Part shown: in pieces, positions 1 through 24,332 of the stretch | Layout of the letters: every line of letters begins with the position of its first letter | Numbering within the stretch: the first letter of the stretch is position 1 | Origin: a virus | Lineage: Duplodnaviria; Heunggongvirae; Uroviricota; Caudoviricetes | IMG/VR virus record: IMGVR_UViG_2627853678_000006 | Span: 1 to 27,962 of that record | Reading direction: 5' to 3' (one strand) | Length of the DNA: 27,962 nucleotides | The notes under the pieces: model-generated | Databases searched by the model: none | The model's input: the letters and a program-made list of their open reading frames with translations, nothing else | What the model was told of the DNA's origin: nothing | Program-made: the position numbers and the translations under genes

Positions 1-1278
1 TTGAATAACCGCCTGTGTACTTGCTTTATCCAGAATATTCCGTCCAACGTTAGTCAGGGTTGTCAGGCTGGCTGTATCATTCCCCGTAAAATACGGAAGT
101 TTGTCTGCCGCAGTGGCAAGGCCTGCCAGTGCGGTCAGTGTGGCGTCGGCAGGTTGTTTTCCATTGGCAAGGTCATATACAGCCTTCACAGCTTTTGGTG
201 TGGCAGCCTGCGTTTCTGACGTGCTGTTAGTGGCGCTGCTGAGTTGCACGGTGCCTTTTACCGTCAGTGAAGCTGCAGGCACATCCGTTATCTGGCTCCA
301 CGGGTGCGTGTGACTGACAGGTGCCTTACCTGCTGCAAGGTCATATGCCGCCTTCACTGCCTTTGGTGTGGCAGCCTGCGTTTCTGACGTGCTGTTAGTG
401 GCACTGCTGAGTTGCACGGTGCCTTTTACCGTCAGTGAAGCTGCAGGCACATCCGTTATCTGATTCCACGGGTGTGTGTGACTGACAGGTGCCTTACCTG
501 CTGCAAGGTCATATGCCGCCTTCACTGCCTTTGGAGTGGCGGCCTGCGTTTCTGATGTGCTGTTAGTGGCGCTGCTGAGTTGCACAGTGCCTTTTACCGT
601 CAGCGAGGCTGCAGGTACACCTGTTATCTGATTCCACGGGTGTGTGTGACTGGCGGATGCTTTACCTGCTGCAAGATCATATGCAGCCTTCACAGCCTTC
701 GGTGTTGCGGCCAGTATTTCGGATTCACTGTTGGTCGCACTGCTTAACTGAGTAAAACCTTTTGCGGTCAGCGAGGCGTCCGGGTGACGTCGTGACTGTT
801 CGTGCTCTGATATTTTGTCATCCACATACTTGCGAGTTGCCAGTACTACAGCAGGGTCGATTTTCAGGGTGATATTGTCCGTACTGCTGGTAATCAGCAC
901 CATGCGCACGGTCTGGGTGCGCCCGCTGCCTTCAGCCAGTTGCGGTTTATAACTTTCCGGGCAGTTCCCCACGGCAATCAATGCCCCTGACTCATCAAAC
1001 AGGCCCACTTCACGTATCCACCAACCGCCCTCGTTTTCAGGGATCACCTGTTCAGCAATAATCTGGCTGCTGTTCTGCGGGTCGATATAGAGCATATTCA
1101 GCGCAGCCCGGCGTTTCTCATTTACCAGTGCAGTCTGCTTTGCGTCCGGCGTCGGCAATGCTCCGCCGCCATCGCCCACCGCCATATGGGTTATTTTTAG
1201 CGGCACACCAAGCGCGGCGGCGCTGGCAAGTTTCGCCGCGCCAATATCCGTCAGCAGGGTATAAAATTTTGTGCTCAT
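1..1278 (-). CDS. H: Tail fiber protein H, N-terminal part; gene runs off the left edge of the window
   Basis: Manual minus-strand translation from ATG at 1278 gives MSTKFYTLLTDIGAAKLA...MAVGDGGG...YVDDKISEHEQSRRHPDASLTAKGFTQLSSATNS...ATLTALAGLATAADKLPYFTGND, closely matching P2 gpH as I recall it. Frame is open to position 1. Start overlaps the stop of gene I (ATGA). Not in the ORF track because there is no stop inside the window. Confidence 0.85.
   Translation of the reverse strand, partial: MSTKFYTLLTDIGAAKLASAAALGVPLKITHMAVGDGGGALPTPDAKQTALVNEKRRAALNMLYIDPQNSSQIIAEQVIPENEGGWWIREVGLFDESGALIAVGNCPESYKPQLAEGSGRTQTVRMVLITSSTDNITLKIDPAVVLATRKYVDDKISEHEQSRRHPDASLTAKGFTQLSSATNSESEILAATPKAVKAAYDLAAGKASASHTHPWNQITGVPAASLTVKGTVQLSSATNSTSETQAATPKAVKAAYDLAAGKAPVSHTHPWNQITDVPAASLTVKGTVQLSSATNSTSETQAATPKAVKAAYDLAAGKAPVSHTHPWSQITDVPAASLTVKGTVQLSSATNSTSETQAATPKAVKAVYDLANGKQPADATLTALAGLATAADKLPYFTGNDTASLTTLTNVGRNILDKASTQAVIQ
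169..840. repeat. 168-bp tandem repeat inside tail fiber gene H: three near-identical copies (169-336, 337-504, 505-672) plus a diverged fourth (673-~840), in frame (56 aa per unit)
   Basis: Direct reading: the unit beginning aaggtcatat recurs at 169, 337, 505 and 673 with only a few mismatches between the first three copies. Each encodes the phage tail-fibre repeat (SLTVKGTVQLSSATNSTSETQAATPKAVKAAYDLAAGK...SHTHPW). Confidence 0.8.
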
Positions 1279-1880
1279 GGATTCACTCTCATTGTGTCAA
1301 TAACATGGACCGCCCCGCCTTCATGCGCGGTGCCGCCGGAAATAATTGTTTCGTTGATATACGGATAGATCGTGATTTCTTCGCCAAGATAGCTGGCGGC
1401 TCCCACCCAATGCGGGCCGCTGGTCTGCAGGTTGATGGACATGCCGCTCATGTGACGGCTACATGGTTTGGCATCGCTTATCAGTCGCTCAAGTTCCAGA
1501 TAGGTATCTTCAGTGATGCCCTGGTCCTGCACGCCGATATCCAGACGAAACGTGCCCGGTGCCTCTCCGGTCTGCCACCACTCAATAATGCGGATCAGAA
1601 AGCCGAACGGCTCCACCACCCGCCGCACGGCACTGGTGGTCCCTTTATGCTGATGAATATAAAAAGCATCCTTCACTACCTGGCGTTTGACGCTTTCTGT
1701 CCAGCCCTCGTCCCAGCGATCCACAGAGAACGCCCAGGCGAGATAAGGCAGGAAGCTGACCGGACAGGTAGCCGGATTCCACAAGTCACGCAGCAGCACC
1801 TGCAGATCAGAAATCCCACTGCAGGTTTGCGCCAGTCGTCGCTCCAGTGAAGTTGAACCCGGTGGTAGCAGACTATTCAT
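1275..1880 (-). CDS. I: Baseplate assembly protein I
   Basis: 201-aa ORF with the P2 gpI-like motif LWNPATCPVSFLPYLAWAFSVDRWDEGW. Lies between J and H with overlapping stop/start codons. Confidence 0.8.
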   Translation of the reverse strand: MNSLLPPGSTSLERRLAQTCSGISDLQVLLRDLWNPATCPVSFLPYLAWAFSVDRWDEGWTESVKRQVVKDAFYIHQHKGTTSAVRRVVEPFGFLIRIIEWWQTGEAPGTFRLDIGVQDQGITEDTYLELERLISDAKPCSRHMSGMSINLQTSGPHWVGAASYLGEEITIYPYINETIISGGTAHEGGAVHVIDTMRVNP

Positions 1881-2780
1881 CCGTTCCTCCGTTGGTCACG
1901 CTCCACTGCGAACATGATGCCGCCTGCGTTTTGTTCAGAACCACATCCGCCAGCGGAGAAGCCAGTTCCACACGTTGAACACCCTCAACATGCAGCGCGG
2001 CAAAGATGGCACTACGGCGAATATCCCGACCGAGCCGCGTCTGACTGGCGATGTACCTCTGCAGGCTGACTTTTGCCGCTGCCATTACCGGCTCTGCTTC
2101 CGGTCCCGGATAAAGAAAAATGGTGGCTTCCACACGGTACGGGATGATTTCTGCGCTGCGAACCGTCAGACGGTCAGCCACTGGGCGGACGTTCTCACTG
2201 TTCAGGCTTTCTCCACCACATCCAGCAAATCTTTTTCTGCTGTTCCGTCGCCTTCACGGCTCAGGATAGTCAGTACCACCTCTGCAGGTGCCGGACTGGT
2301 TGCACTGGCATCCGCCACCCGACCGTCGGCGCTTCGGGCATGAAATTCATAAGCGGCAGTTGGTCCCGCAACTGAAAGCCCCTCAAAGGCTGCAGGCACA
2401 CGCAGGCGTAACGCTTCATCGCTTTCCATCACTGCTGCAACGGGCGGCACAGCGTTATTATCAGCAGGCGTCACCGTCAGGCGTTTCACGTTGTAGTTGG
2501 CAGCGATCTGGTCAAGATCGCCGCCCATCGCGTAAGCCACCATTACCGCCTGCGCGGCTTCGTTAATGCGCTGGCGCAGAAGCAACTCACGGTAAGCGTT
2601 CTCCTGCAACAATTTGGTGACGGGTTCAGATTCCAGTTCCAGCGTGCGGATCACTGCTTCCTGCTCATCTTTCGGATGAAGCGCCACAAATTCTGCCTTG
2701 CGTTCGGCAAGCAGCGTCTCAAAGTCCGGCACATCCACAATCTGCGGTGCAGGCAACTGCGAAAGGTCAATCACTGCCAT
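1873..2780 (-). pseudogene. J: Baseplate assembly protein J, interrupted as sequenced by a -1 frameshift near 2202-2207
   Basis: ORFs 2202..2819 (true start MAVIDLSQLPAP at 2780) and 1873..2181 are the N- and C-terminal parts of one gpJ-like protein in different frames. Minus-strand junction reads gag aaa gcc tga; adding one base (e.g. gcc ctg) gives continuous ...LLDVVEKALNSENVRPVADRLTV... Combined length is about 302 aa, matching P2 gpJ. Confidence 0.8.
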
Positions 2781-3126
2781 TCTCTGCTCCTGTTGATACT
2801 GAAAGGGACACAGGCACACCGTTATTCCGCCGCCCGGTCAGCTCCACCACCATTGAACCGTCAAAATTGCTGTTAATAGTGATGGAATCCAGCGTCAGCC
2901 GTGGCTCCCAGCGACTCAGTGCCACATACACAGCCGACATAACCTGCAGGCGTAACGCCGGATTTTGTGGCTGATCTATCAGTGCCGACAGCAGGGAACC
3001 ATATTCCCGACGGGCAATGCGGCTACCCTGCGGCGTCAGCAGAATGTCCCGCACCGACTGGCGCAGGTGGTCAATATCAGTAATGGCTTTACCGCTGGTA
3101 TTGTTCATCCCGCTATAAAGCGTCAT
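2767..3126 (-). CDS. W: Baseplate protein W (gp25/GPW family)
   Basis: 119-aa ORF, size and position between V and J as in P2; sequence typical of GPW family (…ILLTPQGSRIARREYGS…). Confidence 0.8.
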   Translation of the reverse strand: MTLYSGMNNTSGKAITDIDHLRQSVRDILLTPQGSRIARREYGSLLSALIDQPQNPALRLQVMSAVYVALSRWEPRLTLDSITINSNFDGSMVVELTGRRNNGVPVSLSVSTGAENGSD

Positions 3127-3701
3127 ACCGGGCCTCCGGTTGTGTCGCCGCCTTTCAGGACGCCAGTATGCTGATGCGCATCAACCACGATCCCGTTAGA
3201 ACTCATCGCTCCGCCGCCCTGGGTAACGCCACCATTGATCACCACTTCGCTGTTAATGCGCGTGCGGTCAGCCTCCAGAACAAACTCACTGGTTTTCAGG
3301 GTGATGTTGCCAGCGGCCTCAATGACCATTGATTTGATGCCCCTGACATACCAGCGCCCGGTGGCGGGTTCGTATTCAAACCAGCCACCGTCAGGATGTT
3401 CTGTCACGCAGGCGTCCGCCGACGTCGACGGTGGCGCGAACTGATTCGAATAGATAGCGGGTAACGCAAAGGCTGTTTCCAGATTGCCGCCCAGACTAAG
3501 CAGCACCACCTGCTCACCTTCCGATGGTCGCCACCATGTGCGGGCATTCCCGGCACGCAGCGTCAGCCAGCTGATCCAGTTGGTTTCAAGCTCGCCCGTT
3601 TTCACCCGGCAAAGCCAGTTCTCCCGGTCCACTTCGGTGACTACCCCAGTGCGGATCAGGTTGGTGATAAGGCGCATGATTTCGGTTAGTTGTGCGTTCA
3701 T
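3123..3701 (-). CDS. V: Baseplate spike / central tail protein V
   Basis: ORF 3123..3809; chosen start is the internal ATG at 3699-3701 (MNAQLTEIMRLITNLIRTGVVTEVD), which aligns with the P2 gpV N-terminus. The 36-codon upstream extension looks non-native. No obvious Shine-Dalgarno at either start. Confidence 0.7.
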   Translation of the reverse strand: MNAQLTEIMRLITNLIRTGVVTEVDRENWLCRVKTGELETNWISWLTLRAGNARTWWRPSEGEQVVLLSLGGNLETAFALPAIYSNQFAPPSTSADACVTEHPDGGWFEYEPATGRWYVRGIKSMVIEAAGNITLKTSEFVLEADRTRINSEVVINGGVTQGGGAMSSNGIVVDAHQHTGVLKGGDTTGGPV

Positions 3702-3747
3702 AGGGTTAGGTTGCACGGACCTTGAATCTATGGCATCAATACGTCCT

Positions 3748-3765
3748 TGTGTGGTAAATGACACA
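3748..3765 (-). promoter_or_regulatory. TGT-N12-ACA dyad, candidate Ogr/Delta-type late-promoter activator site for the V-W-J-I-H operon
   Basis: tgt gtggtaaatgac aca read directly, centred about 55 bp upstream of the V ATG. P2-family late promoters carry this dyad upstream of the start site. Confidence 0.4.
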
Positions 3766-3796
3766 AATACAATTCCAATCGAAGAAAGGTAAAAGA

Positions 3797-4327
3797 ATGA
3801 GCCATCCAATTGATTATTACGCTATAGAAGAACACGCAAGAATAATTGAGCAATTATGCTGTTCATCTGAATTTTATTTACAGCGTATATATTCCACACA
3901 GAAAGTATATGATGGTTCTATAGTAACTGAATTTGAAATGGAGGAGTTATCGTACAACGGATGGTTGGAATATACCATTAGCAACAATCTTATTAGCCTT
4001 TGTACAAAACTACGAATTCTCCAAGACACTAATGAACATGAGTGGAACCCAGATTACTCACCTGAGAAAGAAGCATTTGAAGAACATGAAAATATACTTT
4101 TTGTTATAGATGGTCATGTTAAAGGTTCTATACGCGAATGCTGCAATAAAATTATTCACGCATTAAGTTTTGAGTTAACAAAAAAGACCGGCAAAAATGG
4201 AATAAAATATTGGGATGGTTCTATTATTGCTTCTGGGGTTCAAAACAAAAAAAACTGGAAAATTAAAATAGACCTTTTCCCTTTTTGCCAAAGCATAAAA
4301 AGTTATTTAAGTTTATTAAGTGCGTAA
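3797..4327 (+). CDS. Hypothetical protein, AT-rich moron antisense to the late tail operon
   Basis: ORF 3758..4327; preferred start ATG 3797 preceded by aaaggt. Visibly AT-rich versus flanking genes. No recognisable motif. Sits between S and the V late-promoter dyad, where I recall P2 orf30. Confidence 0.55.
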   Translation: MSHPIDYYAIEEHARIIEQLCCSSEFYLQRIYSTQKVYDGSIVTEFEMEELSYNGWLEYTISNNLISLCTKLRILQDTNEHEWNPDYSPEKEAFEEHENILFVIDGHVKGSIRECCNKIIHALSFELTKKTGKNGIKYWDGSIIASGVQNKKNWKIKIDLFPFCQSIKSYLSLLSA

Positions 4328-4332
4328 ACATT

Positions 4333-4785
4333 CTAATTTTTCATCAAAAAATACTTTAAAAGTAAATCTCTTACTTCATTTTCAGTATGTTCATTTAAAC
4401 CCAGCAATTTTCGGGATGGATACTTAATGACTCCCCCCTTTGGACTGACGCGATCGCGCAGGCCGTAATGATGAACGCGGGCAATGCGCTGCACCTTACC
4501 TTCAAACTGTACGCTGGCAGAATCCGCGCTGGCGGCGGTTTTCAGGTATTTTGTGGTGCGCAGCTTTGCAAACATCTGACGTTTGATGCGCCCTTTTTTA
4601 CTTCGTGCTGTTACCCGTCGCGGTTCATAGCTGCTGCCGTCAGGGTTGCGCTGCATCCTGATATTCTGCTGCTGTGTCCGGCGCAGTTCCTGCGCCAGCT
4701 GGCGCATCATGCGGCTTCTGGCGGCTGGTTCCAGATTCGCCAGCAAGGCACTCAGCCAGTCGTCCACTTTCTGCAGTTCAGCCAC
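4333..4785 (-). CDS. S: Tail completion protein S
   Basis: 150-aa ORF matching the size of P2 gpS, downstream of R with overlapping codons. Confidence 0.8.
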   Translation of the reverse strand: MAELQKVDDWLSALLANLEPAARSRMMRQLAQELRRTQQQNIRMQRNPDGSSYEPRRVTARSKKGRIKRQMFAKLRTTKYLKTAASADSASVQFEGKVQRIARVHHYGLRDRVSPKGGVIKYPSRKLLGLNEHTENEVRDLLLKYFLMKN

Positions 4786-5230
4786 GTTTCACCGTCCACA
4801 TTTCTTCAGGTTCATCGGGTTCCGCTACAGCTTCAACGCTCGACACACTGCCGTCAGTGCTGACCAGCACACGTTCCGTCAGTTGCAGGTTAAGGCTGAT
4901 ATCACAGACATCGTTGCGCAGAATATCCACCTCAAAGGTGAATAGTTTTTCCCGTAACGCCGGGTTATTGATGGCATCGGGCTGGTTATCCCTCAGCCAC
5001 AGCAAAACCGGGGCCATCAGCAGATTCTGGTCGCCGCTGAAATCCTCAATCACCGCGTTCAGTGTGTAACGGTACTCCCACGACATGGAGCTGGCCCCCG
5101 TGGCAACCAGCGAACCGTTATCCACAAACAGATGCAGTTTGTCCGGGTTATTGCGGACATAAGGCACCGCTTTATTGAGGGCGTGGCGCAGGGATTGTGG
5201 TTTGTTCACTGTTTCGCTCCTGACACGCAA
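4778..5230 (-). CDS. R: Tail completion protein R
   Basis: 150-aa ORF; motif FVDNGSL...YRYTLNAVIEDFSGD...LLWLRDNQPD resembles P2 gpR. Confidence 0.8.
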   Translation of the reverse strand: MRVRSETVNKPQSLRHALNKAVPYVRNNPDKLHLFVDNGSLVATGASSMSWEYRYTLNAVIEDFSGDQNLLMAPVLLWLRDNQPDAINNPALREKLFTFEVDILRNDVCDISLNLQLTERVLVSTDGSVSSVEAVAEPDEPEEMWTVKRG

Positions 5231-5462
5231 TAATCATGTCCACTTTGTCTGCACAGACCGCCCAGGCGGCCTCCGTTTCATCCAGCAACGCATTCAGATC
5301 ACCGTTAGTGCGTGGTGCTGCCTGCTCCAGCCGACACGGCGTCACTCGCGGACAACCACTGACGGTAAGCTGCACCTCCGGTGAGTGCCGGACGTTCCCG
5401 CAGCCGGATAATGTCAGCAGGCAAAGGAGTATCAGCCCAGTGGCGTAAATCCTCGTTCTCAC
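5172..5462 (-). CDS. lysC: o-spanin (LysC/Rz1-like outer-membrane lipoprotein)
   Basis: Signal peptide with lipobox (LLCLLTLSGC), Pro-rich. Begins inside lysB in another frame and extends past it, the P2 lysB/lysC arrangement. Confidence 0.6.
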   Translation of the reverse strand: MRTRIYATGLILLCLLTLSGCGNVRHSPEVQLTVSGCPRVTPCRLEQAAPRTNGDLNALLDETEAAWAVCADKVDMIIACQERNSEQTTIPAPRPQ

Positions 5463-5733
5463 GTTTCAGTTCCTCGATCCGGCGTTGTCGTTGTCTCAGC
5501 TGTACGCTGGTCTGTTCTGCTTCGGCATAGAGCCGCGCCTGCTCCCGGTTATTGGTTTCAGTCAGAATGGACAGGCTGATAAGCTGGCTGTTGCTCTTTG
5601 CCAGTGCCTGGCTTTTGCTCTGCAGCTTGTTTGCCTGCGTGCTGATGGTCTGGCTGGCATCAGCCAGCCGCCACGTCTGCCAGCCCAGCGCCGCCAGTAA
5701 TAACGCCAGCACAACCAGCAGCAACCGGTTCAT
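5305..5733 (-). CDS. lysB: i-spanin (LysB/Rz-like)
   Basis: N-terminal transmembrane helix (LLLVVLALLLAALGW) followed by a charged coiled-coil region (QRQRRIEELKRENEDLRHW); 142 aa. Confidence 0.7.
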   Translation of the reverse strand: MNRLLLVVLALLLAALGWQTWRLADASQTISTQANKLQSKSQALAKSNSQLISLSILTETNNREQARLYAEAEQTSVQLRQRQRRIEELKRENEDLRHWADTPLPADIIRLRERPALTGGAAYRQWLSASDAVSAGAGSTTH

Positions 5734-6107
5734 GCTGATACCTGTTGCGCCATCTGATTACGGGTCATCCAGAAGGCAATAACGGTCAGCAGATAAAAGA
5801 CCAGGGTAATAGCCCACCCCGTCCAGGCGAGACTTACAACAATCAGCAATCGCATCACCCAACTGGTAAATACATTTTCTTTTCGGGTAATTGTCTTCAG
5901 CAAAGATGCCCTTAACTCCTGCCAGAGCGGGCCATTCTTAATTAACGCAGCCAGTGCTACCGGAATTACCGCCCATGTCAGCAAACAGGCTACCCAAACG
6001 CCGGACGCTGACAGTACCGGAAAAATCCCCTGCGGATACACCATTGCTGCGATTAACAGCGCCATCCATAACATCAGAAATAGTCCGCTGATTAATTTCT
6101 TTTTCAT
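5730..6107 (-). CDS. lysA: LysA-like membrane protein (lysis timing)
   Basis: Multi-TM protein starting MKKKLISGLFLMLW at ATG 6105-6107. The longer ORF to 6179 adds 24 non-hydrophobic codons. Confidence 0.6.
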   Translation of the reverse strand: MKKKLISGLFLMLWMALLIAAMVYPQGIFPVLSASGVWVACLLTWAVIPVALAALIKNGPLWQELRASLLKTITRKENVFTSWVMRLLIVVSLAWTGWAITLVFYLLTVIAFWMTRNQMAQQVSA

Positions 6108-6108
6108 T

Positions 6109-6619
6109 TCAGTTTGCTCCCTGTAAACACCAGGCCATCTCCCGCGCACGGCGGTTATCCAGCCCCTGATTAAACACACCTTTTACATAAACCCAGCGCG
6201 GCAACTGTCGGCACGCATCCGCCCAGCGCCGCTGATTGAGCAATTTCACCAGCGTGGAACTACAGGCATTGCCCGTCCCCACGTTGAAGGCAAACGACAC
6301 CGTAGCGTCATACACCTTCTGTGGTGGCTGTTGCTTCACACACCTTTCCAGTGCCCGCTCCACACGCAGCACGTTGGAGATCAGCCTTCTGCTGCCTGTC
6401 GTTCCGTGATTGTTTTGCCGGGAATGACGCCCGATGTATTACCAATGCCGTCGGTCCAGACACCCGCGCTGCACTGATACGGCTGCAGACGACAGCCTCG
6501 TAATCGGCAATCAGTTTCAGCCCCTCCACGGAGGTGTGAAGCTGCTGAAAACCCGGCAGCGTGGCAGCAATAGCCAGCACGGCCCCGACAAGGCAGCGTT
6601 TAACGATTGATGGATTCAT
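6109..6619 (-). pseudogene. K: Endolysin (GH24 T4-type lysozyme with signal-anchor N-terminus), interrupted as sequenced by two -1 frameshifts
   Basis: Manual three-frame translation. Frame A from ATG 6619 gives MNPSIVKRCLVGAVLAIAATLPGF...LKLIADYE. The conserved core GCRLQPYQCSAGVWTDGIGNTSGVIPGKTITERQAAEG is in a second frame (about 6386-6496). LISNVLRVERALERCV...YDATVSFAFNVGTGNACSSTLVKLLNQ is in a third (ORF 6109..6372). Junctions at about 6493-6499 and 6382-6386 each lack one base in a short G/C run. Confidence 0.8.
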
Positions 6620-6815
6620 AGCCCTCCCGCGAGATCTGCCCGTCGCGCAGAAGCTGGTAGGCTTTGTGCTTGTAGTACCAGTTGATAGCCAGCATCAGCA
6701 CACCAATCATCAGGCCGCCCAGCGTTGAGGCATCCTTGATGGACAAATCGCCCAGCCAGGCCAGCACGACGGCGATGCAATACGTGATAAAGGTGCTGAT
6801 TCGCTCAAGCGTCAT
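6600..6815 (-). CDS. Y: Holin
   Basis: 71-aa ORF with two hydrophobic segments and a charged C-terminus, immediately upstream of the endolysin and downstream of X. Confidence 0.65.
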   Translation of the reverse strand: MTLERISTFITYCIAVVLAWLGDLSIKDASTLGGLMIGVLMLAINWYYKHKAYQLLRDGQISREGYESINR

Positions 6816-6818
6816 AAT

Positions 6819-7022
6819 TCAGTCCCATAGCTGGACGGTCTGCACGGTGGTGGTGGTCGGAATGTCCGGCAGCTCCACCTGCAGCCCGTGAGGTAAAAAG
6901 GGGCCGTATTCGGCAAGCCCCGGATTTGCCTTCAGTACCTGCTCCGTGACACCCTGCGTGCGCCCGTAATGACGCCAGCAAAGCGCGTCCACCGTGTCAT
7001 ACTGATGCGCACGCACTTTCAT
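6819..7022 (-). CDS. X: Tail protein X
   Basis: 67-aa ORF, same length as P2 gpX, between L and the holin. Confidence 0.8.
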   Translation of the reverse strand: MKVRAHQYDTVDALCWRHYGRTQGVTEQVLKANPGLAEYGPFLPHGLQVELPDIPTTTTVQTVQLWD

Positions 7023-7486
7023 CAGATAAGCTCCACTGTGCAGTGCGGCGCATCCTGTACCCGGCTGATGGCCCAGCGTGCGTCACGCCACAAATCACCG
7101 CTGGATTCCGCCAGTTCCTCGCCTCGCTTCACACCGGATGCCGTGGCGTCATAGTCCTGGTATCGTTCGTTGAGCATGGCGCGTGCCCAGCAGTAAACCG
7201 CGTTGAAATAGTGCTGAATGCGCTCACTTTTGCCGTCCAACTGTTCCGCCGGAACCTCAGCCAGCGACACATACCCCAGCATCTGCTGACGTCTGCGGAA
7301 CTCATACAGCTCTGCGTTGACCTCCGAAATTGCCGACAGCGCAACCTGCTTTAAACGCGGCTGCGTCACCGTGCCGTCAGTGCGCATGACACTGCGAAAC
7401 TCCGACAGGTCCACATCAGGCCAGAACGGCGTATTTCTGATGATTTCCGCCTGTTCCGGTGCCTGTTCTGGCGCAACAAACTTCAT
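7022..7486 (-). CDS. L: Head completion/stabilisation protein L
   Basis: Start taken at ATG 7484-7486 (MKFVAPEQ) with GGAG Shine-Dalgarno; the track ORF extends to 7549. Confidence 0.75.
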   Translation of the reverse strand: MKFVAPEQAPEQAEIIRNTPFWPDVDLSEFRSVMRTDGTVTQPRLKQVALSAISEVNAELYEFRRRQQMLGYVSLAEVPAEQLDGKSERIQHYFNAVYCWARAMLNERYQDYDATASGVKRGEELAESSGDLWRDARWAISRVQDAPHCTVELI

Positions 7487-7581
7487 GCTGCTTTCTCCTG
7501 AAATAGAGGGCGGTGGACGGGGTTTTGATGTGGCAGTGCCTTTCGCCACCCCGTGCCGCCCGTGCGCGGGGGCACGTTCTG

Positions 7582-8232
7582 TCAGCGGCTGTCATTGCGC
7601 AGTCTGCGCTCCAGCTGCTGTTTGTCTTTTTTCACGCCACAGCGGGGATCGAGCTGTAACGCATGGTTGAGATGATTAAGGGCGGAAGCCGGATTGCTTT
7701 CACTCAGGACAGCGCCAATCGCTTTATGCAGACGCGCCCGTGACTGGTCCGGCATATCCAGACCGTCTATCAGCTCCAGCGTCTGCAACAACAGATCGGC
7801 ATCAAAGCCGGTGGCGGCAAGCATTGCGCTCTGCGCGGCGTCTGCCATTTCCTCTGCCAGCACGGTCTGCACATTGCGGTTACCCAGTGGCATCACCCAG
7901 CCATGACGCAGGGCATGACGCCCGATCTCCAGCGCCCCGGCATAATCTCCGGCATCAATGCGCCACAGCATCACGTACATCAGTACGTCATCCTGTTGAG
8001 TGCCTCCGGCAGCCAGGACGCCCTCTGCCCAAGCGGCGTACTTCGGCAGCAGCTCCACCTTTATTTCCGCTTTTTTCACCGTGGACTGAACGCCCTTGAG
8101 ACGGCGGCGGTCTTCCGCCAGTTGCAGCAGCATCAGGTCATAGCCCGACGCGTGGCGAACACTGCCGCCCTCGCGGGCGGCCTGTTCAGCCTGAACGCGC
8201 AGGCGATGCTGCCGTGCGGGACTCAGGCTCAT
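7582..8232 (-). CDS. M: Terminase endonuclease (small) subunit M
   Basis: 216-aa ORF directly after capsid gene N, P2 gpM position. Confidence 0.75.
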   Translation of the reverse strand: MSLSPARQHRLRVQAEQAAREGGSVRHASGYDLMLLQLAEDRRRLKGVQSTVKKAEIKVELLPKYAAWAEGVLAAGGTQQDDVLMYVMLWRIDAGDYAGALEIGRHALRHGWVMPLGNRNVQTVLAEEMADAAQSAMLAATGFDADLLLQTLELIDGLDMPDQSRARLHKAIGAVLSESNPASALNHLNHALQLDPRCGVKKDKQQLERRLRNDSR

Positions 8233-8235
8233 GGG

Positions 8236-9294
8236 TTACGCTCCGGCTTCTGCTGCAGCGGCGCTGAAATCGCCAATCTGGATGTTTTCCACCAGTGCGG
8301 CGCAGCGGTAGTCCTCAACCACATAGGCTTCATTAACGGATTCAAAGTTTTCAATCCGGTCACGTTTCGGGTTGTCGATAACTGAGCGGCGGCGGGTGTC
8401 TTCCTGCCAGTAGATGGACAGGTTATCCAGACGGGTGATCAGCAGTGCATTCGGCGGGAAGAACGGCGCACGCACGGCCTGCAGGCCACCCATGCGTTTC
8501 TGACTGATGATCATATCGGCAGCCAGTTTTTCACTGTTTTCCTGCTCTTTGTTGACCAGCGGGAAATACTTGTCAGACAGCAGTTCACGACCGCAAATCA
8601 CCACCAGATCGTCATCGTCCTGGTAGACCACGTCGATAAGCTCATTGACGGCATCCATCACCACGGCGTCCAGGTTGGCATATTCGCCACCTTTCCCGAC
8701 TTTCACCGCACCCGGTGTGGTTTCACCGCCCGTGGTGGTGCTACCCATGACGTGATCCGGTGCATCTTCACGGATTTTCTGCAGCCAGCCTTTGTTCACA
8801 TCTTGCAACAGCGGGTTTTCGCTACGGTTGGAGGTTTTCGCACGCTTCACGCCGTTAAAGCCGATCATGATGCGGTCCAGTGCCTGACGTTTCACGATGG
8901 CGTCACGGATACGCACCTGGAAATCCTGAAACTTCGCCCACAGGTCCAGCTTCGCGTAGGTCAGTACCGTGTCAAAGTTGGTCTGCTCGCATTTGTATTC
9001 CACATCGACCATCAGCGTCGGATCGACAGGTTCACGCTCTTTCGCGGTGGTATCAGTGGTTCCGGCAATGGTGCTGCCAACTCCCAACCCCAGCAGCTGA
9101 CCGGACTGCTCAGTCACTGGCGCGACGTTAATCAGCGTCAGGAAAGCGGCGGACTGCTGGATCTGGTCTTCCAGCGTCTGCTGTACAGACGGCTCCACGG
9201 TGAACTTGCTGGACAGTTCTTCAACTGCCACACCGTTCAGACGCGCCAGCTGCTGCAGGTAAGCGTTAAAAGCAAAGCGGGTATTCTTCTTCAT
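8236..9294 (-). CDS. N: Major capsid protein N
   Basis: 352-aa ORF (P2 gpN about 357 aa) following scaffold gene O. Confidence 0.85.
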   Translation of the reverse strand: MKKNTRFAFNAYLQQLARLNGVAVEELSSKFTVEPSVQQTLEDQIQQSAAFLTLINVAPVTEQSGQLLGLGVGSTIAGTTDTTAKEREPVDPTLMVDVEYKCEQTNFDTVLTYAKLDLWAKFQDFQVRIRDAIVKRQALDRIMIGFNGVKRAKTSNRSENPLLQDVNKGWLQKIREDAPDHVMGSTTTGGETTPGAVKVGKGGEYANLDAVVMDAVNELIDVVYQDDDDLVVICGRELLSDKYFPLVNKEQENSEKLAADMIISQKRMGGLQAVRAPFFPPNALLITRLDNLSIYWQEDTRRRSVIDNPKRDRIENFESVNEAYVVEDYRCAALVENIQIGDFSAAAAEAGA

Positions 9295-9310
9295 CAGGTT
9301 TTGTGCTCCA

Positions 9311-10144
9311 TCAGCAATTGGTCAGAGTGTCAGCGGGGGCGTTGCCGCCTGTTGCACGCTGGCGGTAGTCCTGGCGCCTGTCTTCATGGCTCAGCTTGTC
9401 CACCAGTTCATTAAAGGCGGTCTGCTGTGCCTGCAGGGCAGTCTCCAGCTCAGACAGGCGTTCTTCCTGCTCAGACAGGGATTTTTCGGTGCGCGTACTC
9501 AGGTTCTGCTGCTCGGTAGCGACCAGTTCCACGGCCTTATGCACATCAGAGAACCGGGCATCATCGGACTGCTCTTTTTTGGTGAACAGCGCCGTGACAC
9601 GGGCAAACAGGGACGGTTTGTCATCCTGGATTTCTTCCAGTTCGATCACCGTTTCCTCTGCAGCGGTAAAGAGATTGGCAGGATTCTGCTTGCGGTTTGC
9701 CAGCGGGTTATGGGCTGCACTGGCGCTGAATGTCAGCATTTCCGTACCCAGACTGGCTGGATCATCAGTGGCAGCCAGGCCGACCAGGTAGGCTTTGCCC
9801 GTATCAGCAAACTTCGGGCTGACTTCCATAGAGGTGAATAATTTCTGGCCTTTTTTCACCAGTTCCACCAGGGACTCCGTTGGCTCAACGTCGGCATACA
9901 ATGCCATCTTGCCTGCCAGCGAACCTTCCGTAATTTCTTCAGCAAACAGCGCCGTCACCTTGCCGTAGCGGTTAAAGGTGCTGTCCGGCAGATAAGACTT
10001 GATGTGCTCAAGGTTAATCAGCGCGGTATACACCGCCGGGTTGTAGCTGGCTGCCATCTGTTCCAGCCATTCACGCTGGATTTCGCGTCCATCGGTGGTG
10101 GCACCTTCCACCCCGATGCGAAAACGCTTTGCTTTCACTGTCAT
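9311..10144 (-). CDS. O: Capsid scaffolding protein O
   Basis: 277-aa ORF with acidic coiled-coil C-terminus; divergent from terminase P as in P2. Confidence 0.85.
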   Translation of the reverse strand: MTVKAKRFRIGVEGATTDGREIQREWLEQMAASYNPAVYTALINLEHIKSYLPDSTFNRYGKVTALFAEEITEGSLAGKMALYADVEPTESLVELVKKGQKLFTSMEVSPKFADTGKAYLVGLAATDDPASLGTEMLTFSASAAHNPLANRKQNPANLFTAAEETVIELEEIQDDKPSLFARVTALFTKKEQSDDARFSDVHKAVELVATEQQNLSTRTEKSLSEQEERLSELETALQAQQTAFNELVDKLSHEDRRQDYRQRATGGNAPADTLTNC

Positions 10145-10222
10145 GAGCCGTGCTCCGTTAGAAAAAACTTACTGGAGCCTTATGGTTGCGGTGATGGGGG
10201 CAGTGAAACAATGCGCGGTATT

Positions 10223-10240
10223 TGTACCGACAACCACACA
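10223..10240. promoter_or_regulatory. TGT-N12-ACA dyad in the O/P divergent region, candidate late-promoter activator site
   Basis: tgt accgacaaccac aca read directly, between the O start (10144) and P start (10287). Confidence 0.35.
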
Positions 10241-10286
10241 AACCGCAGGCGGGGAAAGCCTTCATTCAAGGCTGTAGGTTTGTGCC

Positions 10287-12051
10287 ATGAACACCACACT
10301 GACACCCGCAGATCTCGATCCCCGTCGGCAGGCCATGCTGCTGTACTTTCAGGGATACCGCGTCGCCCGCATTGCTGAAATGCTGGGCGAGAAAGTTGCA
10401 ACCGTTCATAGCTGGAAAAAACGCGACAAGTGGGGTGACTATGGGCCGCTGGATCAGATGCAGCTCACCACCGCCGCACGCTACTGCCAGCTCATTATGA
10501 AGGAGCACAAAGAAGGGAAAGATTTCAAAGAGATTGACCTGCTGGCGCGCCAGTCGGAGCGCCACGCGCGCATCGGCAAGTTTAACAATGGCGGCAACGA
10601 AGCCGACTTAAACCCTAACGTCGCCAACCGCAACAAAGGCCCGCGCCGTCAGCCGGAAAAGAATGTTTTCACCGATGAACAGATTGAGAAGCTGGAAGAA
10701 ATCTTCCATTCCTCCATGTTCAACTACCAGCGCCACTGGTGGGAAGCCGGAAAAACCAACCGCATCCGCAACCTGCTGAAATCACGCCAGATCGGCGCGA
10801 CCTTTTACTTTGCCCGTGAAGCCCTGATTGACGCTCTGCTTACCGGACGTAACCAGATTTTCCTTTCCGCCAGTAAGGCACAGGCCCACGTCTTTAAGCA
10901 GTACATCATCGACTTCGCCAAAGAAGTCGAGGTGGAGCTGAAAGGCGATCCGATGGTGCTTCCTAACGGGGCCACGCTTTACTTCCTCGGCACCAATGCC
11001 CGCACGGCCCAGAGTTACCACGGCAACCTGTATCTGGATGAATATTTCTGGATACCGAAATTCCAGGAGCTGCGCAAAGTGGCTTCCGGTATGGCTATTC
11101 ACAAAAAATGGCGACAAACCTATTTTTCCACGCCATCCAGTCTGACACACAGTGCTTATCCGTTCTGGTCCGGTGCGCTGTTCAACCGTGGGCGCAACAA
11201 AGCCGATAAGGTGGACATCGACCTGTCCCACAGAAATCTGGCCCCCGGCCTGCTGTGCGCAGACGGGCAATACCGCCAGATAGTCACCGTGGAAGATGCG
11301 GTGCGCGGCGGCTGTAACCTGTTCGACCTTGACCAGTTGCGCATGGAGTACAGCCCGGACGAATACCAGAACCTGCTGATGTGCGAGTTTGTGGACGATC
11401 TCGCGTCCGTGTTCCCTCTCAGCGAGCTGCAGGCGTGCATGGTAGACAGCTGGGAAATCTGGACCGACTTTCATGCACTGGCGCTGCGCCCGTTTGGCTG
11501 GCGCGAAGTGTGGATCGGTTATGACCCGGCAAAAGGTACGCAAAACGGCGACAGCGCCGGATGCGTGGTGGTGGCACCGCCAGCCGTGCCGGGTGGTAAG
11601 TTCCGCATTCTTGAGCGTCACCAGTGGCGCGGGATGGACTTCCGCGCCCAGCTGACGCCATCAAAAAACTTACCGAGCAGTACAACGTGACTTATATCGG
11701 TATCGACTCAACCGGCGTTGGTCACGGGGTTTACGAGAACGTGAAAGCGTTCTTTCCTGCCGTCAGGGAGTTTGTCTACAACCCCAACGTTAAAAACGCC
11801 TGGTACTCAAGGCCTACGACATTATCAGCCACCGCCGTCTGGAGTTTGACGCCGGGCACACCGACATTGCGCAGTCATTTATGGCAATCCGTCGCGCAAC
11901 CACCGCCAGTGGCAACCGCCCAACCTATGAAGCCAGCCGCAGCGAAGAAGCCAGCCACGCCGATCTGGCCTGGGCAACGATGCACGCACTGTTTAACGAA
12001 CCGCTGCAGGGCGAGTCCGCCAATACCAGCAATATTGTGGAGATTTTTTGA
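10287..12051 (+). pseudogene. P: Terminase large subunit (ATPase) P, interrupted as sequenced by two -1 frameshifts
   Basis: Frame 1 (10287..~11650) ends ...RILERHQWRGMDFRAQ. Frame 2 continues ADAIKKLTEQYNVTYIGIDSTGVGHGVYENVKAFFPAVREFVYNPNVK (ORF 11624..). Frame 3 continues RLVLKAYDIISHRRLEFDAGHTDIAQSFMAIRR...NEPLQGESANTSNIVEIF to the stop at 12049-12051. Junctions near 11648-11652 and 11796-11798 each lack one base. Restored length is about 588 aa (P2 gpP about 590). Confidence 0.85.
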
Positions 12052-13079
12052 TGGGAAAGAGTAAGAAAAACCGCACTGCGGCGACGAATCAGATCCAGCA
12101 TAAAAACCAGACTACAGCCGAAGCATTCAGCTTCGGCGATCCCGTTCCTATTCTGGACCGCCGAGAATTACTGGACTATGTGGAATGCGTACAGATGGAC
12201 CGTTGGTATGAGCCGCCCGTCAGCTTTGACGGACTGGCGCGCACCTTCCGCGCTGCCGTGCATCACAGTTCCCCGATTGCAGTAAAGTGCAACATTCTGA
12301 CCAGTACCTATATCCCTCATCCTCTGCTCAGCCAGCAAGCTTTTTCGCGTTTTGTGCAGGACTATCTGGTATTTGGCAACGCCTATCTGGAGAAACGCAC
12401 GAACCGCTTCGGTGAAGTGATCGCCCTTGAACCTGCGCTGGCAAAATACACCCGACGCGGATTAGACCTGGATACCTACTGGTTTGTGCAATACGGTATG
12501 ACAACCCAGCCGTATCAGTTCACGAAAGGCAGCATTTTTCATCTGATGGAACCGGATATTAATCAGGAGATCTACGGCCTGCCCGGTTATCTTTCTGCCA
12601 TTCCGTCAGCCCTGCTCAACGAGTCCGCCACGCTGTTCCGTCGCAAGTATTACATTAACGGCAGTCATGCGGGCTTTATCATGTACATGACCGATGCCGC
12701 GCAAAACCAGGAGGATGTGAACAACCTCCGCAATGCGATGAAAAGCGCCAAAGGGCCGGGCAACTTCCGCAACCTGTTTATGTACTCACCTAACGGCAAA
12801 AAGGACGGGCTTCAGATTATCCCGTTATCAGAAGTCGCAGCGAAGGATGAGTTTCTGAATATCAAAAATGTTAGTCGCGATGACATGATGGCGGCACACC
12901 GCGTTCCACCGCAAATGATGGGGATTATGCCTAATAATGTCGGGGGATTTGGGGATGTGGAGAAGGCTAGTAAGGTTTTTGTGATAAATGAATTAATTCC
13001 TTTGCAAAAACGATTTAGAGAAATTAATGCATGGCTCGGGGAAAAACTTATAGAATTTTCTCCATATGAGCTTAACTAA
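12048..13079 (+). CDS. Q: Portal protein Q
   Basis: 343-aa ORF (P2 gpQ about 344 aa) overlapping the terminase stop (ATGA). Confidence 0.85.
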   Translation: MMGKSKKNRTAATNQIQHKNQTTAEAFSFGDPVPILDRRELLDYVECVQMDRWYEPPVSFDGLARTFRAAVHHSSPIAVKCNILTSTYIPHPLLSQQAFSRFVQDYLVFGNAYLEKRTNRFGEVIALEPALAKYTRRGLDLDTYWFVQYGMTTQPYQFTKGSIFHLMEPDINQEIYGLPGYLSAIPSALLNESATLFRRKYYINGSHAGFIMYMTDAAQNQEDVNNLRNAMKSAKGPGNFRNLFMYSPNGKKDGLQIIPLSEVAAKDEFLNIKNVSRDDMMAAHRVPPQMMGIMPNNVGGFGDVEKASKVFVINELIPLQKRFREINAWLGEKLIEFSPYELN

Positions 13080-13086
13080 AATATTA

Positions 13087-13118
13087 GTTGCCAGTACCGT
13101 ATTGTTGCTACTGGCAAT
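13087..13118. terminator. Inverted repeat between convergent Q and the RloC-like gene, possible bidirectional terminator
   Basis: ttgccagta ... tactggcaa (9-bp arms) in the 49-bp gap between the two stop codons, followed by A/T-rich sequence. The loop is long, so weak. Confidence 0.25.
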
Positions 13119-13128
13119 TGTAATAAAA

Positions 13129-15465: not shown

Positions 15466-15597
15466 CCTCTAATCCTCAAAAAACAGATTAATCCTATCAA
15501 ATCAATGATAATAGAAGACATTACTTACCTAATTACAAGGTGATCATTTATACAGCTGTAAATAAATCAGGCTAATCATCTATTTGTCATAACGCGC

Positions 15598-15626
15598 GCT
15601 CGTATCCCCGCCACGCCTGCCCGCTT
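15598..15626. other. Putative cos (cohesive end) site
   Basis: Reverse complement of 15601-15625 reads agcgggcaggcGTGGCGGGGAtacg, resembling the G-rich P2/186 cohesive-end sequence as I recall it (GGCGxGGCGGGGAAAGCA). Located between Q and gene A as expected. Confidence 0.4.
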
Positions 15627-15705
15627 TGTGTAGTGGTTTTCATGCACCTGCATGACATAAGTAAAAGCCCGCCAGAACTGGCGGGACTGAGCAAAAACGA
15701 TCCTT

Positions 15706-15735
15706 TTGCGATCATTCATTTTCATGCGCTATAGT
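15706..15735 (+). promoter_or_regulatory. Candidate sigma70 promoter for the three-gene operon
   Basis: TTGCGA (15706-15711), 18-bp spacer, TATAGT (15730-15735); about 100 bp upstream of an AGGAG Shine-Dalgarno and ATG at 15836. Confidence 0.35.
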
Positions 15736-15835
15736 CATGCAACAAACGCATACGAACCATATGGTTAGATTACTCATCAAGTCAGATGGATTTTCAGGCA
15801 GATTGCCACAGCAATTGTAAAGGAGCGAGATTGAA

Positions 15836-16837
15836 ATGGGTGGAGAGACTTCGGCTATACAACGAGTCGCGGGTAAGATTTCTGATGATATTTTCTCAGT
15901 GTTCAAATGGGATCGTGCCGCTAGAGCGGACATGAATTGGGATTGTTGCCAAGAGGCTCATTCCAAGAAAACACATCCAAGCGATGTTGTATTTTTCTAC
16001 ATAGATCCATATGAGGAGGAAATGGTCTATCTCAACACAGACCTCAAAAGCTATGCAGAAGGTACTATTGGGAAAAAAATAGTCGAGGGAGCTTTAACAT
16101 CGCTTGCTTTAGCTACCGAATGTGCAAATGTCAGTGAAGAATGGCGATTGAAATATGTTCATGATGATTCTTTAGGTTATAACGTAAGAGGGTTATTATT
16201 CTTATATAACCATGATAATTTATATGATAAAGACTTCTATGAGAATATTACAAAAAAATTAGATCACTCATCTATAAATTGCCCTCCAAACATCAAACTA
16301 CATTTGCTTGACCCTTATAAAATATCAGATTTGATAAACATATCTTCTGACATAACTAAGTTAATTGGTTCAGGAAAACTTCCTCAACCTGATAAGTTCA
16401 CATATTATTATCCAGATCTTTCCCTAACAAGAATAAAGCACCCTATTAATCAGACAACACCTGCAACAATTGAATTATTAACATCACCATACATTATAAT
16501 AAAGCATGAGGCTTTCAGTTGGCTCAGGGATAAAAACCCTGAGGGATATGTTGTTTATTACAATCAACCGGGGGATTCAGTAGACGAATTCGTTTACTTC
16601 TTTGATATGTTATCAACTTATCAGATATTAACCGAAGGTAAACCAATCGTATTACGCCATTGTCACATTCACCCAAATGAAAATGCCATTCATCATTTTG
16701 AAAGAGCGAAAAAGAAATACAGCACAGACTGGCTCTTAGGCGAGGATGAAAGACTTTTTCTTAAAATTGACTTCGACAAGACAGACAAAATTGTTGTTGA
16801 ATATAATCTTGAACAAATCGGCATGGAGCAACGATAA
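15836..16837 (+). CDS. Hypothetical protein, first gene of three-gene operon; possible PD-(D/E)xK-like motif
   Basis: 333-aa AT-rich ORF with AGGAG Shine-Dalgarno. Contains VVFFYID-x11-TDLK and a His-rich stretch RHCHIHPNENAIHH. Stop overlaps the next start (TAATG). Confidence 0.75.
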   Translation: MGGETSAIQRVAGKISDDIFSVFKWDRAARADMNWDCCQEAHSKKTHPSDVVFFYIDPYEEEMVYLNTDLKSYAEGTIGKKIVEGALTSLALATECANVSEEWRLKYVHDDSLGYNVRGLLFLYNHDNLYDKDFYENITKKLDHSSINCPPNIKLHLLDPYKISDLINISSDITKLIGSGKLPQPDKFTYYYPDLSLTRIKHPINQTTPATIELLTSPYIIIKHEAFSWLRDKNPEGYVVYYNQPGDSVDEFVYFFDMLSTYQILTEGKPIVLRHCHIHPNENAIHHFERAKKKYSTDWLLGEDERLFLKIDFDKTDKIVVEYNLEQIGMEQR

Positions 16838-18586: not shown

Positions 18587-18642
18587 ATGGCTTATAAGGA
18601 GTTACTTCACCTAACGCCTCGCCTTACTCGTTGTTCAACCTC

Positions 18643-18673
18643 GTAGGCGTCAGAATCAAGTTCTGACGCCTAC
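18643..18673 (+). terminator. Stem-loop terminator after the three-gene operon
   Basis: Perfect 13-bp inverted repeat gtaggcgtcagaa / ttctgacgcctac with 5-nt loop, followed by aatgtttctt. Lies between the convergent ends of the operon and the DinI-like gene. Confidence 0.55.
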
Positions 18674-18681
18674 AATGTTTC

Positions 18682-18915: not shown

Positions 18916-18925
18916 AAAAGTCACC

Positions 18926-19114: not shown

Positions 19115-19157
19115 TTTTCCTCCTATGACACCACAAGCAATACTGTACACATAACCA

Positions 19158-23402: not shown

Positions 23403-23424
23403 AATTCATATCCCCAAAACGCAA

Positions 23425-23649: not shown

Positions 23650-24332
23650 TTTGACTTTCTCCGTTTCCTCGTGGTCAATTCAGACAGCAATTCATCTTGT
23701 GAATGACATGGATGCCAGCGTTTACCATCCTCACCCATGATCCAGCCGTGACCGTAGTGCATTGCCGGGCTTTGTTTTACCAGCAGCGATGCAAATGATG
23801 GTTCTTTCGTCAGCATAAGCACCTCACAGCAAACCGAATGAAGCACCGAGCCAGTCACGGTATCAACTGCACTCGCCATCGCAGGATTAGCCTGTAAACG
23901 GGCCTGCAATGAAACAGCCGCCAGCGCCATCAGTCGTGTTACAGAATTAATGCTGCTGATCGCATCGCGACGGCCTGCACTGGTTTTTACATCGCCAGAA
24001 ACCGCACCTGCAGCAACACGCCCGATCTCTGCGGTTGCACTCATGACGTAATGTGGCAGTCTCTCTTTTGCCACCTCATTTACCGGTATACATGGCAGGC
24101 AGTGAATCTGAGCCAGAAATCCATCAACCAGTGTTGGGTCTTCAGTGAGATCGGTTAACTGCCAGATATCTGACGCAGTAAGTTGGTGTGGTTGTTCCGG
24201 GTTGAGCTTGTTACGCAAGGTTTGAACGTTCATACCTGCGCGCTCTGCCAGCTTCGCCATGTTGTGTCGTAGGGCGAAGGCCCGGCAGGCTTCATTGAAA
24301 TGGGGATGTTTTGAAATGCGATAGTCAAACAT
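23520..24332 (-). CDS. cII: CII-like transcriptional regulator (186 CII family); C-terminal about 60 aa questionable
   Basis: N-terminal region (MFDYRISKHPHFNEACRAFALRHNMAKLAERAGMNVQTLRNKLNP...) resembles 186-type CII with HTH. At 270 aa the ORF is longer than I expect for this family and its tail is Cys/Arg-rich. Confidence 0.55.
   Translation of the reverse strand: MFDYRISKHPHFNEACRAFALRHNMAKLAERAGMNVQTLRNKLNPEQPHQLTASDIWQLTDLTEDPTLVDGFLAQIHCLPCIPVNEVAKERLPHYVMSATAEIGRVAAGAVSGDVKTSAGRRDAISSINSVTRLMALAAVSLQARLQANPAMASAVDTVTGSVLHSVCCEVLMLTKEPSFASLLVKQSPAMHYGHGWIMGEDGKRWHPCHSQDELLSELTTRKRRKSKCMQRKVKWFISFVTEGRVIQYLKMICSVVIRRCRAMAVTFSR

What the first reader, a model, noticed from the sequence alone, without database searches (positions are those of the whole stretch)
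1873..2780. Baseplate gene J interrupted by a single-base deletion
gpJ N-terminal 192 codons end at TGA 2202-2204; the remaining about 110 codons continue in the next frame. Restoring one base at the gcc|ctg junction yields an uninterrupted protein of about 302 aa. This is the fifth -1 event in the backbone; all five are deletions and none are insertions.
Basis: seen in the sequence. Interest (0 to 1): 0.45.

Follow-up and report, generated by a model that had tools for sequence, protein, structure and literature searches.

The report
Sequencing-error frameshift in phage baseplate gene
The baseplate gene J of this P2-like prophage does lack one base, but the gap is almost certainly an Ion Proton sequencing error in a short C run rather than a biological mutation, so it is ordinary.

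Summary
On the minus strand, gene J (1873-2780) reads 192 codons and stops at TGA 2202-2204. A CCC run present in every homologue is CC here (window 2205-2206). Adding one C gives a 302-aa Baseplate_J protein identical to that of the nearest relative.

The cause is almost certainly technical. The window is 100% identical to GenBank contig JXRF01000055.1, an E. coli draft made from single Ion Proton reads. Against a near-identical prophage in GCA_013024345.1, 22.9 kb show 1 substitution, six one-base deletions and no insertions. The deletions lie in J, lysozyme K (two), terminase P (two) and CII. All are in runs of 2-3 bases, and five are C/G. That is the published signature of Ion Torrent high-frequency indel errors.

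A separate assembly of run SRR1765575, evidently the same isolate, restores two of the six sites and drops a different base at a third. It keeps the J deletion, so a genuine mutation in J is not excluded (about 10%).

No other record carries the deleted junction: about 1,000 complete E. coli genomes, GTDB representatives, IMG/VR and JGI metagenomes. There is no slippery site for programmed frameshifting. Interest is low.

The parts
2205..2780 (-). gpJ codons 1-192 (N-terminal part, Baseplate_J_N and the start of the middle domain), reading frame 0
   Evidence: ORF list and translation. Pfam Baseplate_J matches residues 118-191 only, cut off at the break.
2202..2204 (-). Premature TGA created directly after the missing base (GCC CTG AAC becomes GCC TGA)
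   Evidence: Sequence, alignment, translation.
2205..2206 (-). Site of the missing base: a CC run on the coding strand where all homologues have CCC (codons 192/193)
   Evidence: The deleted junction has 0 hits in complete E. coli genomes, GTDB representatives, IMG/VR and JGI metagenomes. The intact junction has 55 hits in IMG/VR.
1873..2205 (-). gpJ codons 193-302 plus stop (rest of the middle domain and Baseplate_J_C) in the -1 frame; overlaps the start of gene I by 8 bases as in intact relatives
   Evidence: Pfam Baseplate_J on the 102-aa fragment. PF26079 Baseplate_J_C on the same fragment in the Logan contig. The repaired protein is identical to J of GCA_013024345.1.
6385..6386 (-). Same class of event: CC for CCC in lysozyme K (codon 79). 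Absent from the independent assembly of SRR1765575.
6496..6498 (-). Same class of event in lysozyme K (codon 41). The reference has GCCTTC, the window GCCTC (a T lost) and the Logan assembly GCTTC (a C lost).
11650..11651 (+). Same class of event: G for GG in terminase P (codon 455). Absent from the independent assembly of SRR1765575.
11799..11800 (+). Same class of event: CC for CCC in terminase P (codon 505). Shared with the Logan assembly.
23849..23850 (-). Same class of event: G for GG in the CII gene, which fuses CII and Fil into a 270-aa ORF (23520-24332). Shared with the Logan assembly.

Best explanation
The gene is an ordinary P2-type baseplate wedge gene J, in the usual V-W-J-I-H order of a P2-like prophage. 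The missing C is most likely not in the bacterium's DNA. It is a systematic under-call of a short C/G homopolymer by Ion Proton semiconductor sequencing, carried into the CLC de novo consensus that was deposited as JXRF01000055.1. Shown here: the window is that contig; the contig comes from Ion Proton single reads; the deletion and five others of the same kind exist; a near-identical prophage lacks all six while differing by one substitution; and two to three of the six change with the assembler. Inferred: that the J deletion itself is an error. It could not be checked at read level.
For: (1) Source. The window is 100% identical to GCA_000832005.1 JXRF01000055.1 over 1-11880 and 3129-25465. 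The genome announcement states Ion Proton sequencing, about 3 million single reads, 101x coverage, CLC de novo assembly and 453 contigs (PMC4384488). (2) Mutation spectrum. Against contig DABGJF010000029.1 of GCA_013024345.1, window 20-11875 shows 1 substitution and 5 one-base deletions, and window 16911-27962 shows 0 substitutions and 1 one-base deletion. There are no insertions. If natural indels run at about a tenth of the substitution rate (my recollection of E. coli mutation-accumulation studies, not checked here), six or more indels beside one substitution has P below 1e-4. (3) Context. All six lie in runs of 2-3 bases, and five are C/G. Bragg et al. 2013 report Ion Torrent high-frequency indel errors about once per 1-2 kb. 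The strand-asymmetric ones sit 82% in homopolymers of length 2-3, are dominated by C and G deletions, and cause frameshifts in assemblies (PMC3623719). Another Ion Torrent genome had more than 400 apparent pseudogenes, many of them false frameshifts at homopolymers; 64 remained after manual curation (PMC3917457). (4) Instability. The Logan assembly of SRR1765575 shares the otherwise unique J, P-505 and CII deletions, so it is evidently the same isolate. It has intact runs at 6386 and 11651 and loses a different base at 6497/8. (5) The repaired J is 100% identical in protein to the relative's J, and the J DNA has no other difference. (6) The truncated 192-aa and 102-aa products are on record only in SRR1765575. 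The same gpI protein occurs on at least 24 contigs, and the eight of the ten places shown that come from other samples all carry a 302-aa J.
Against: The J deletion, unlike those at 6386 and 11651, is reproduced in the k-mer based Logan assembly. It is therefore the majority state in that read set, which is also what a real mutation would give. No second, independent sequencing run of the isolate is available. I could not inspect reads, flow values or strand asymmetry. That SRR1765575 is the run behind JXRF01 is inferred from sequence identity and shared unique deletions, not from metadata. Long homopolymers (at least 5 bases; 155 in the window) carry no errors, which fits motif-specific high-frequency indels but not simple length-dependent under-calling.
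Confidence: 0.88

Rival explanations
1. The deletion is a genuine frameshift mutation. The prophage is defective, J is a pseudogene that makes a 192-aa fragment without the C-terminal domain, and no functional baseplate or virion can form. The host keeps the element, perhaps for its intact defence cargo.
For: The deletion is present in both available assemblies of the isolate. NCBI calls no protein product for J in this contig, which suggests it is treated as a pseudogene. Prophage decay by frameshift is common (general knowledge). The defence-type cargo genes are all intact.
Against: The spectrum is 1 substitution against 6 one-base deletions and 0 insertions relative to a near-identical prophage. 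Natural decay gives far more substitutions than indels, a mix of sizes and directions, and IS insertions. At least two of the sister events are assembler-dependent. The platform is known to produce exactly this error. No other record among thousands shares the junction.
Confidence: 0.1
2. The break is functional. Either J is expressed by programmed -1 ribosomal frameshifting at the junction, or it is made as two separate polypeptides that assemble into the wedge.
For: The two halves correspond roughly to separable domains. The C-terminal domain 209-302 of the homologue PA0618 was solved on its own (5ces). The downstream frame is the -1 frame.
Against: There is no in-frame X_XXY_YYZ heptamer near the junction. 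The break falls inside the Pfam Baseplate_J match at residue 192, not at a domain border. No relative has the interruption; all are uninterrupted 302-aa genes. The first start codon of the 102-aa ORF, GTG at 2181, lies 8 codons past the break. Whether it has a ribosome-binding site was not examined.
Confidence: 0.02

Closest known systems
Bacteriophage P2 gpJ / Baseplate_J family (Pfam PF04865; PF26776/PF26078/PF26079); structural homologue PA0618 of the Pseudomonas R-type pyocin baseplate (PDB 6u5b, 5ces)
   Same: Once one base is restored the protein is 302 aa long. It has a Baseplate_J match (E 2e-23) and the gene order V-W-J-I-H. It is 97-99.7% identical in DNA to J genes annotated as 'baseplate assembly protein' in about 1,000 complete E. 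coli genomes, and matches PA0618 at E 2.6e-105 over residues 3-302.
   Different: As deposited, the reading frame is broken at codon 192/193 by one missing C.
Ion Torrent/Proton high-frequency indel (HFI) errors, and false frameshift pseudogenes in Ion Torrent assemblies (Bragg et al. 2013, PMC3623719; Ramos et al. 2012, PMC3917457)
   Same: Single-base deletions, mainly of C/G, in homopolymers of 2-3 bases. The density is one per few kb (here 6 in 28 kb). They cause frameshifts in the consensus and are not reproduced consistently, as two to three of the six sites here show.
   Different: The published description is for the PGM, whereas this genome was run on the Ion Proton. Strand asymmetry and run-specificity could not be tested for the J site, which is stable between the two assemblies.
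Frameshifted genes in cryptic or defective prophages
   Same: A late structural gene is interrupted by a 1-nt deletion, and several other essential phage genes are hit as well.
   Different: There is no accompanying substitution load, no insertions, no larger deletions and no IS elements. The rest of the prophage is base-for-base identical to an intact relative.

Membership tests
P2 gpJ / Baseplate_J | Significant match to the Baseplate_J profile | tested here: met
   PF04865 scores 83.4 bits (cut-off 21.1) on the intact relative. The two window fragments score 35.2 and 23.5 bits and cover profile positions 112-185 and 196-254.
P2 gpJ / Baseplate_J | Position in the P2 late operon between W (gp25-like) and I, upstream of tail fibre H | tested here: met
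   ORFs V 3123-3809, W 2767-3126, J 1873-2780, I 1275-1880 and H up to 1278, all on the minus strand. Annotated relatives have the same order.
P2 gpJ / Baseplate_J | One uninterrupted ORF of about 302 codons | tested here: not met
   The gene is broken at codon 192 in the deposited sequence. The feature is met only after restoring one C, which gives a protein identical to J of GCA_013024345.1.
Ion Torrent high-frequency indel error | Sequence produced on an Ion semiconductor platform | tested here: met
   The window is JXRF01000055.1. The genome announcement reports Ion Proton single reads and CLC assembly (PMC4384488).
Ion Torrent high-frequency indel error | Single-base deletion of C or G in a homopolymer of 2-3 bases | tested here: met
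   CCC becomes CC at 2205-2206. Five of the six events in the window are C/G, and all are in runs of 2-3 bases.
Ion Torrent high-frequency indel error | Not reproducible between runs or analyses of the same template | tested here: inconclusive
   Sites 6386 and 11651 revert and site 6497/8 changes in the Logan assembly of SRR1765575, but the J site stays deleted. No second run exists.
Ion Torrent high-frequency indel error | Strand-asymmetric support in the reads | not testable with these tools
Genuine prophage pseudogene (decay) | Indels accompanied by a larger number of substitutions and a mixed indel spectrum relative to intact relatives | tested here: not met
   1 substitution, 6 one-base deletions and 0 insertions over 22.9 kb against GCA_013024345.1.
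Programmed -1 ribosomal frameshift | Slippery X_XXY_YYZ heptamer at the frame junction | tested here: not met
   No in-frame heptamer in gene positions 541-600.
Programmed -1 ribosomal frameshift | Frame junction conserved in related phages | tested here: not met
   The deleted junction has 0 matches anywhere else. The intact junction has 55 matches in IMG/VR, and relatives carry a 302-aa J.

The most novel reading that the evidence does not exclude
The J deletion (perhaps with the P-505 and CII deletions that also survive re-assembly) is real. In that case this isolate carries a freshly inactivated P2-like prophage that can no longer build a baseplate but keeps three intact defence-type cargo loci, a snapshot of prophage domestication at its first step.
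Probability: 0.08. Interest if true: 0.2.

Novelty: not a real feature. Interest (0 to 1): 0.05.

Why it matters
It matters mainly as a data-quality flag. The contig comes from an uncorrected Ion Proton draft, so every apparent frameshift or split gene in this window (J, K, P, CII-Fil) should be treated as suspect. The same probably applies to the whole JXRF01 assembly. None of them should be counted as pseudogenes, gene fusions or recoding sites. If the deletion were real, it would only mean one more defective P2-like prophage, which is commonplace.

Tried and rejected
(1) I searched for the deleted junction as an exact 28-mer in GTDB representative genomes, IMG/VR and JGI metagenomes, and as an 80-mer in complete E. 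coli genomes. There were no matches, so no independent occurrence supports a real allele.

(2) I first judged the spectrum against the closest complete genomes, ECamp52 and 23CRST022. That gave 20 substitutions, 16 apparently private with 9 synonymous and 7 non-synonymous, and left decay and error undecided. Those 'private' substitutions turned out to be shared with closer draft genomes, so that analysis was superseded.

(3) I looked for Dam/Dcm methylation motifs, as in nanopore-type errors. Two of the six deletions lie at CCWGG sites (my reading of the flanking sequence), and none of the substitutions lie in such a motif. I dropped this once the platform proved to be Ion Proton.

(4) Programmed frameshifting was rejected: no heptamer and no conservation.

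(5) I tried to retrieve the host flank of JXRF01000055.1 to count frameshifts in core genes. The integrase look-up showed only a relative's contig, and the JXRF01 place was collapsed among similar places.

(6) A look-up of the window's 467-aa truncated terminase found nothing on record. That fits the absence of called proteins for J, K, P and CII/Fil on the JXRF01 contig, which I read as pseudogene annotation, and the Logan assembly lacking that deletion.

Full report
**What is in the sequence**

The window is a P2-like prophage with its late genes on the minus strand. The order is H (partial, up to 1278), I (1275-1880), J (1873-2780), W (2767-3126), V (3123-3809), then S, R, the lysis genes, X, L, M, N and O. 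P and Q lie on the plus strand. Cargo genes, the early genes and the integrase follow, and the integrase stop codon ends the window.

Gene J starts at ATG 2780. It reads 192 codons (MAVIDL...DVVEKA) and meets TGA at 2202-2204. The remaining 110 codons run in the -1 frame down to 1873. Pfam Baseplate_J covers residues 118-261 of an intact homologue, and the break cuts that match in two.

Alignment with the two closest complete E. coli genomes shows a single gap. They read GAG AAA GCC CTG AAC, and the window reads GAG AAA GCC TGA. Restoring one C gives a 302-aa protein.

**Is the deletion seen anywhere else?**

About 1,030 complete E. coli genome records carry a near full-length homologue. Every hit listed spans 909 bases against the window's 908.

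- An 80-base probe across the junction found 34 records. None falls in the 99%-or-higher identity band, and the ten listed each span 81 bases against the probe's 80.
- The deleted junction, as an exact 28-mer, is absent from the GTDB representative genomes, IMG/VR and the JGI metagenomes.
- The intact junction occurs 55 times in IMG/VR.
- The exact 192-aa and 102-aa fragments are on record only on one contig, the Logan assembly of run SRR1765575.

**Where the window comes from**

Look-ups with the window's AAA-ATPase and gpI proteins returned NCBI contig JXRF01000055.1 of assembly GCA_000832005.1. It is 100% identical to the window over 1-11880 and 3129-25465. On that contig no protein is called for J, lysozyme, terminase or CII/Fil, which suggests NCBI treats them as pseudogenes.

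[quoted passage not shown] It was sequenced on an Ion Proton: about 3 million single reads, 101x coverage, assembled de novo with CLC into 453 contigs (PMC4384488).

**The pattern of differences**

The closest complete genomes, ECamp52 and 23CRST022, are 99.7% identical over window 1-15741. They differ by 20 substitutions and five one-base deletions in the window.

Better relatives exist among draft genomes. Contig DABGJF010000029.1 of GCA_013024345.1 matches as follows:

| Window range | Substitutions | One-base deletions in the window | Insertions |
|---|---|---|---|
| 20-11875 | 1 (position 5874) | 5 | 0 |
| 16911-27962 | 0 | 1 | 0 |

Over 22.9 kb the whole difference is one substitution, six single-base deletions and no insertions. 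The six sites are:

| Window position | Gene and codon | Change |
|---|---|---|
| 2205/6 | J, codon 193 | CCC to CC |
| 6385/6 | lysozyme K, codon 79 | CCC to CC |
| 6498 | lysozyme K, codon 41 | TT to T |
| 11651 | terminase P, codon 455 | GG to G |
| 11799/800 | terminase P, codon 505 | CCC to CC |
| 23849/50 | CII | GG to G, fusing CII to Fil |

All six are in runs of 2-3 bases, and five are C/G. Given the window's composition, the chance values are about 0.01 and 0.0014. I find six.

**Why this is an artefact rather than decay**

Natural prophage decay produces many more substitutions than indels, a mixture of insertions and deletions of various sizes, and often IS insertions. None of that is present here.

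The pattern does match a described instrument error. Bragg et al. 2013 report Ion Torrent 'high-frequency indel' errors about once per 1-2 kb of reference. The strand-asymmetric ones lie 82% in homopolymers of length two to three and are dominated by deletions of C and G. The authors note that they cause frameshifts in assemblies and are hard to tell from polymorphisms without replicate runs (PMC3623719). Another Ion Torrent genome project reported more than 400 apparent pseudogenes, many of them false frameshifts at homopolymers; 64 remained after manual curation (PMC3917457).

The sites are also unstable. The Logan assembly of SRR1765575 shares the otherwise unique J, P-505 and CII deletions and is 99.97-100% identical to the window, so it is evidently the same isolate. 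Yet it has intact CCC at 6386 and intact GG at 11651. At 6496-6498 it reads GCTTC where the window reads GCCTC and all relatives read GCCTTC. Two assemblers resolving these sites differently is what noisy homopolymer calls produce, not what fixed mutations produce.

**What remains open**

The J deletion itself survives in both assemblies, so in that run the majority of reads lack the base. That is expected for a high-frequency indel error, but it is also what a real mutation would give. I could not inspect reads.

I put the artefact at about 0.88, a real inactivating mutation at about 0.10, and a functional split or programmed frameshift at about 0.02. For the last reading there is no in-frame slippery heptamer, the break is inside a domain, and there is no conservation.

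**Comparison with what is known**

With the base restored, the gene is a routine member of the P2 gpJ / Baseplate_J family.

- Its protein is identical to J of GCA_013024345.1.
- It differs from J of ECamp52 and 23CRST022 by one residue, T291S.
- It matches the R-type pyocin baseplate protein PA0618 (PDB 6u5b) at E 2.6e-105. That protein's C-terminal domain (5ces) corresponds to residues 209-302, which would be lost from the 192-aa fragment.

Nothing about the gene is new. The only notable point is the error source.

**Verdict**

The feature is most likely not biological, and interest is very low. The practical consequence is that all split genes in this contig should be treated as suspect until they are resequenced.

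Noticed in passing
window 6385-6386, 6496-6498, 11650-11651, 11799-11800, 23849-23850: Five more single-base deletions of the same kind break lysozyme K (twice) and terminase P (twice), and fuse CII to Fil (270-aa ORF 23520-24332). Two of them (6386, 11651) are absent from the Logan assembly of SRR1765575, and at 6497/8 the two assemblies drop different bases.
   Followed up: yes
window 15836-18586 (+): A three-gene cargo block sits between the AAA ATPase and the DinI-like gene. It gives full-length PADLOC matches to Hp1/Hp2/Hp3, and Pfam hits PDDEXK_GAPS4 and GAPS4b_N on the first two genes. This is a defence-type island in a variable region, since other relatives carry different genes at the same place. 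It is intact and differs from E. coli FDAARGOS_433 at only 2 bases.
   Followed up: partly
window 13129-15465 (-): A 778-aa AAA_13 ATPase next to the portal gene matches the PADLOC candidate defence family PDC-S06 (E 1e-266), with weaker similarity to PrrC and LmuB. It is intact and is found with an identical sequence on 22 contigs.
   Followed up: partly
window 25487-26827 (+): A KAP-family P-loop NTPase lies between the CI repressor and the integrase and matches PADLOC PDC-S20 (E 1e-171). Relatives such as 23CRST022 carry a SNIPE-associated domain gene at the same position, so this is another swap site.
   Followed up: partly
window 3758-4327 (+): An opposite-strand ORF is inserted between V and S (189 aa here; annotated as a 176-aa hypothetical protein in relatives). 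It has no PADLOC match and is absent from some relatives (Z226-7, D7), so it behaves like a moron of unknown function.
   Followed up: no
window 1-777 (-), tail fibre gene H: The tail fibre gene contains internal repeats with a period of about 168 bases (self-offset BLAST hits at 85-91% identity). The JXRF01 contig begins within or next to them, and the window starts at about contig base 3. The draft assembly probably broke in this repeat.
   Followed up: partly
whole window against relatives: The prophage is a mosaic. Window 1-15741 is 99.7% identical to ECamp52 and 23CRST022, whose early region is only 94% identical. Window 18611-27962 is 99.4-99.5% identical to LFB1-1-1R and MFDS1001074. 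Only GCA_013024345.1 matches at near identity on both sides of the cargo block: window 20-11875 and 16911-27962; 11876-16910 was not retrieved for it.
   Followed up: partly
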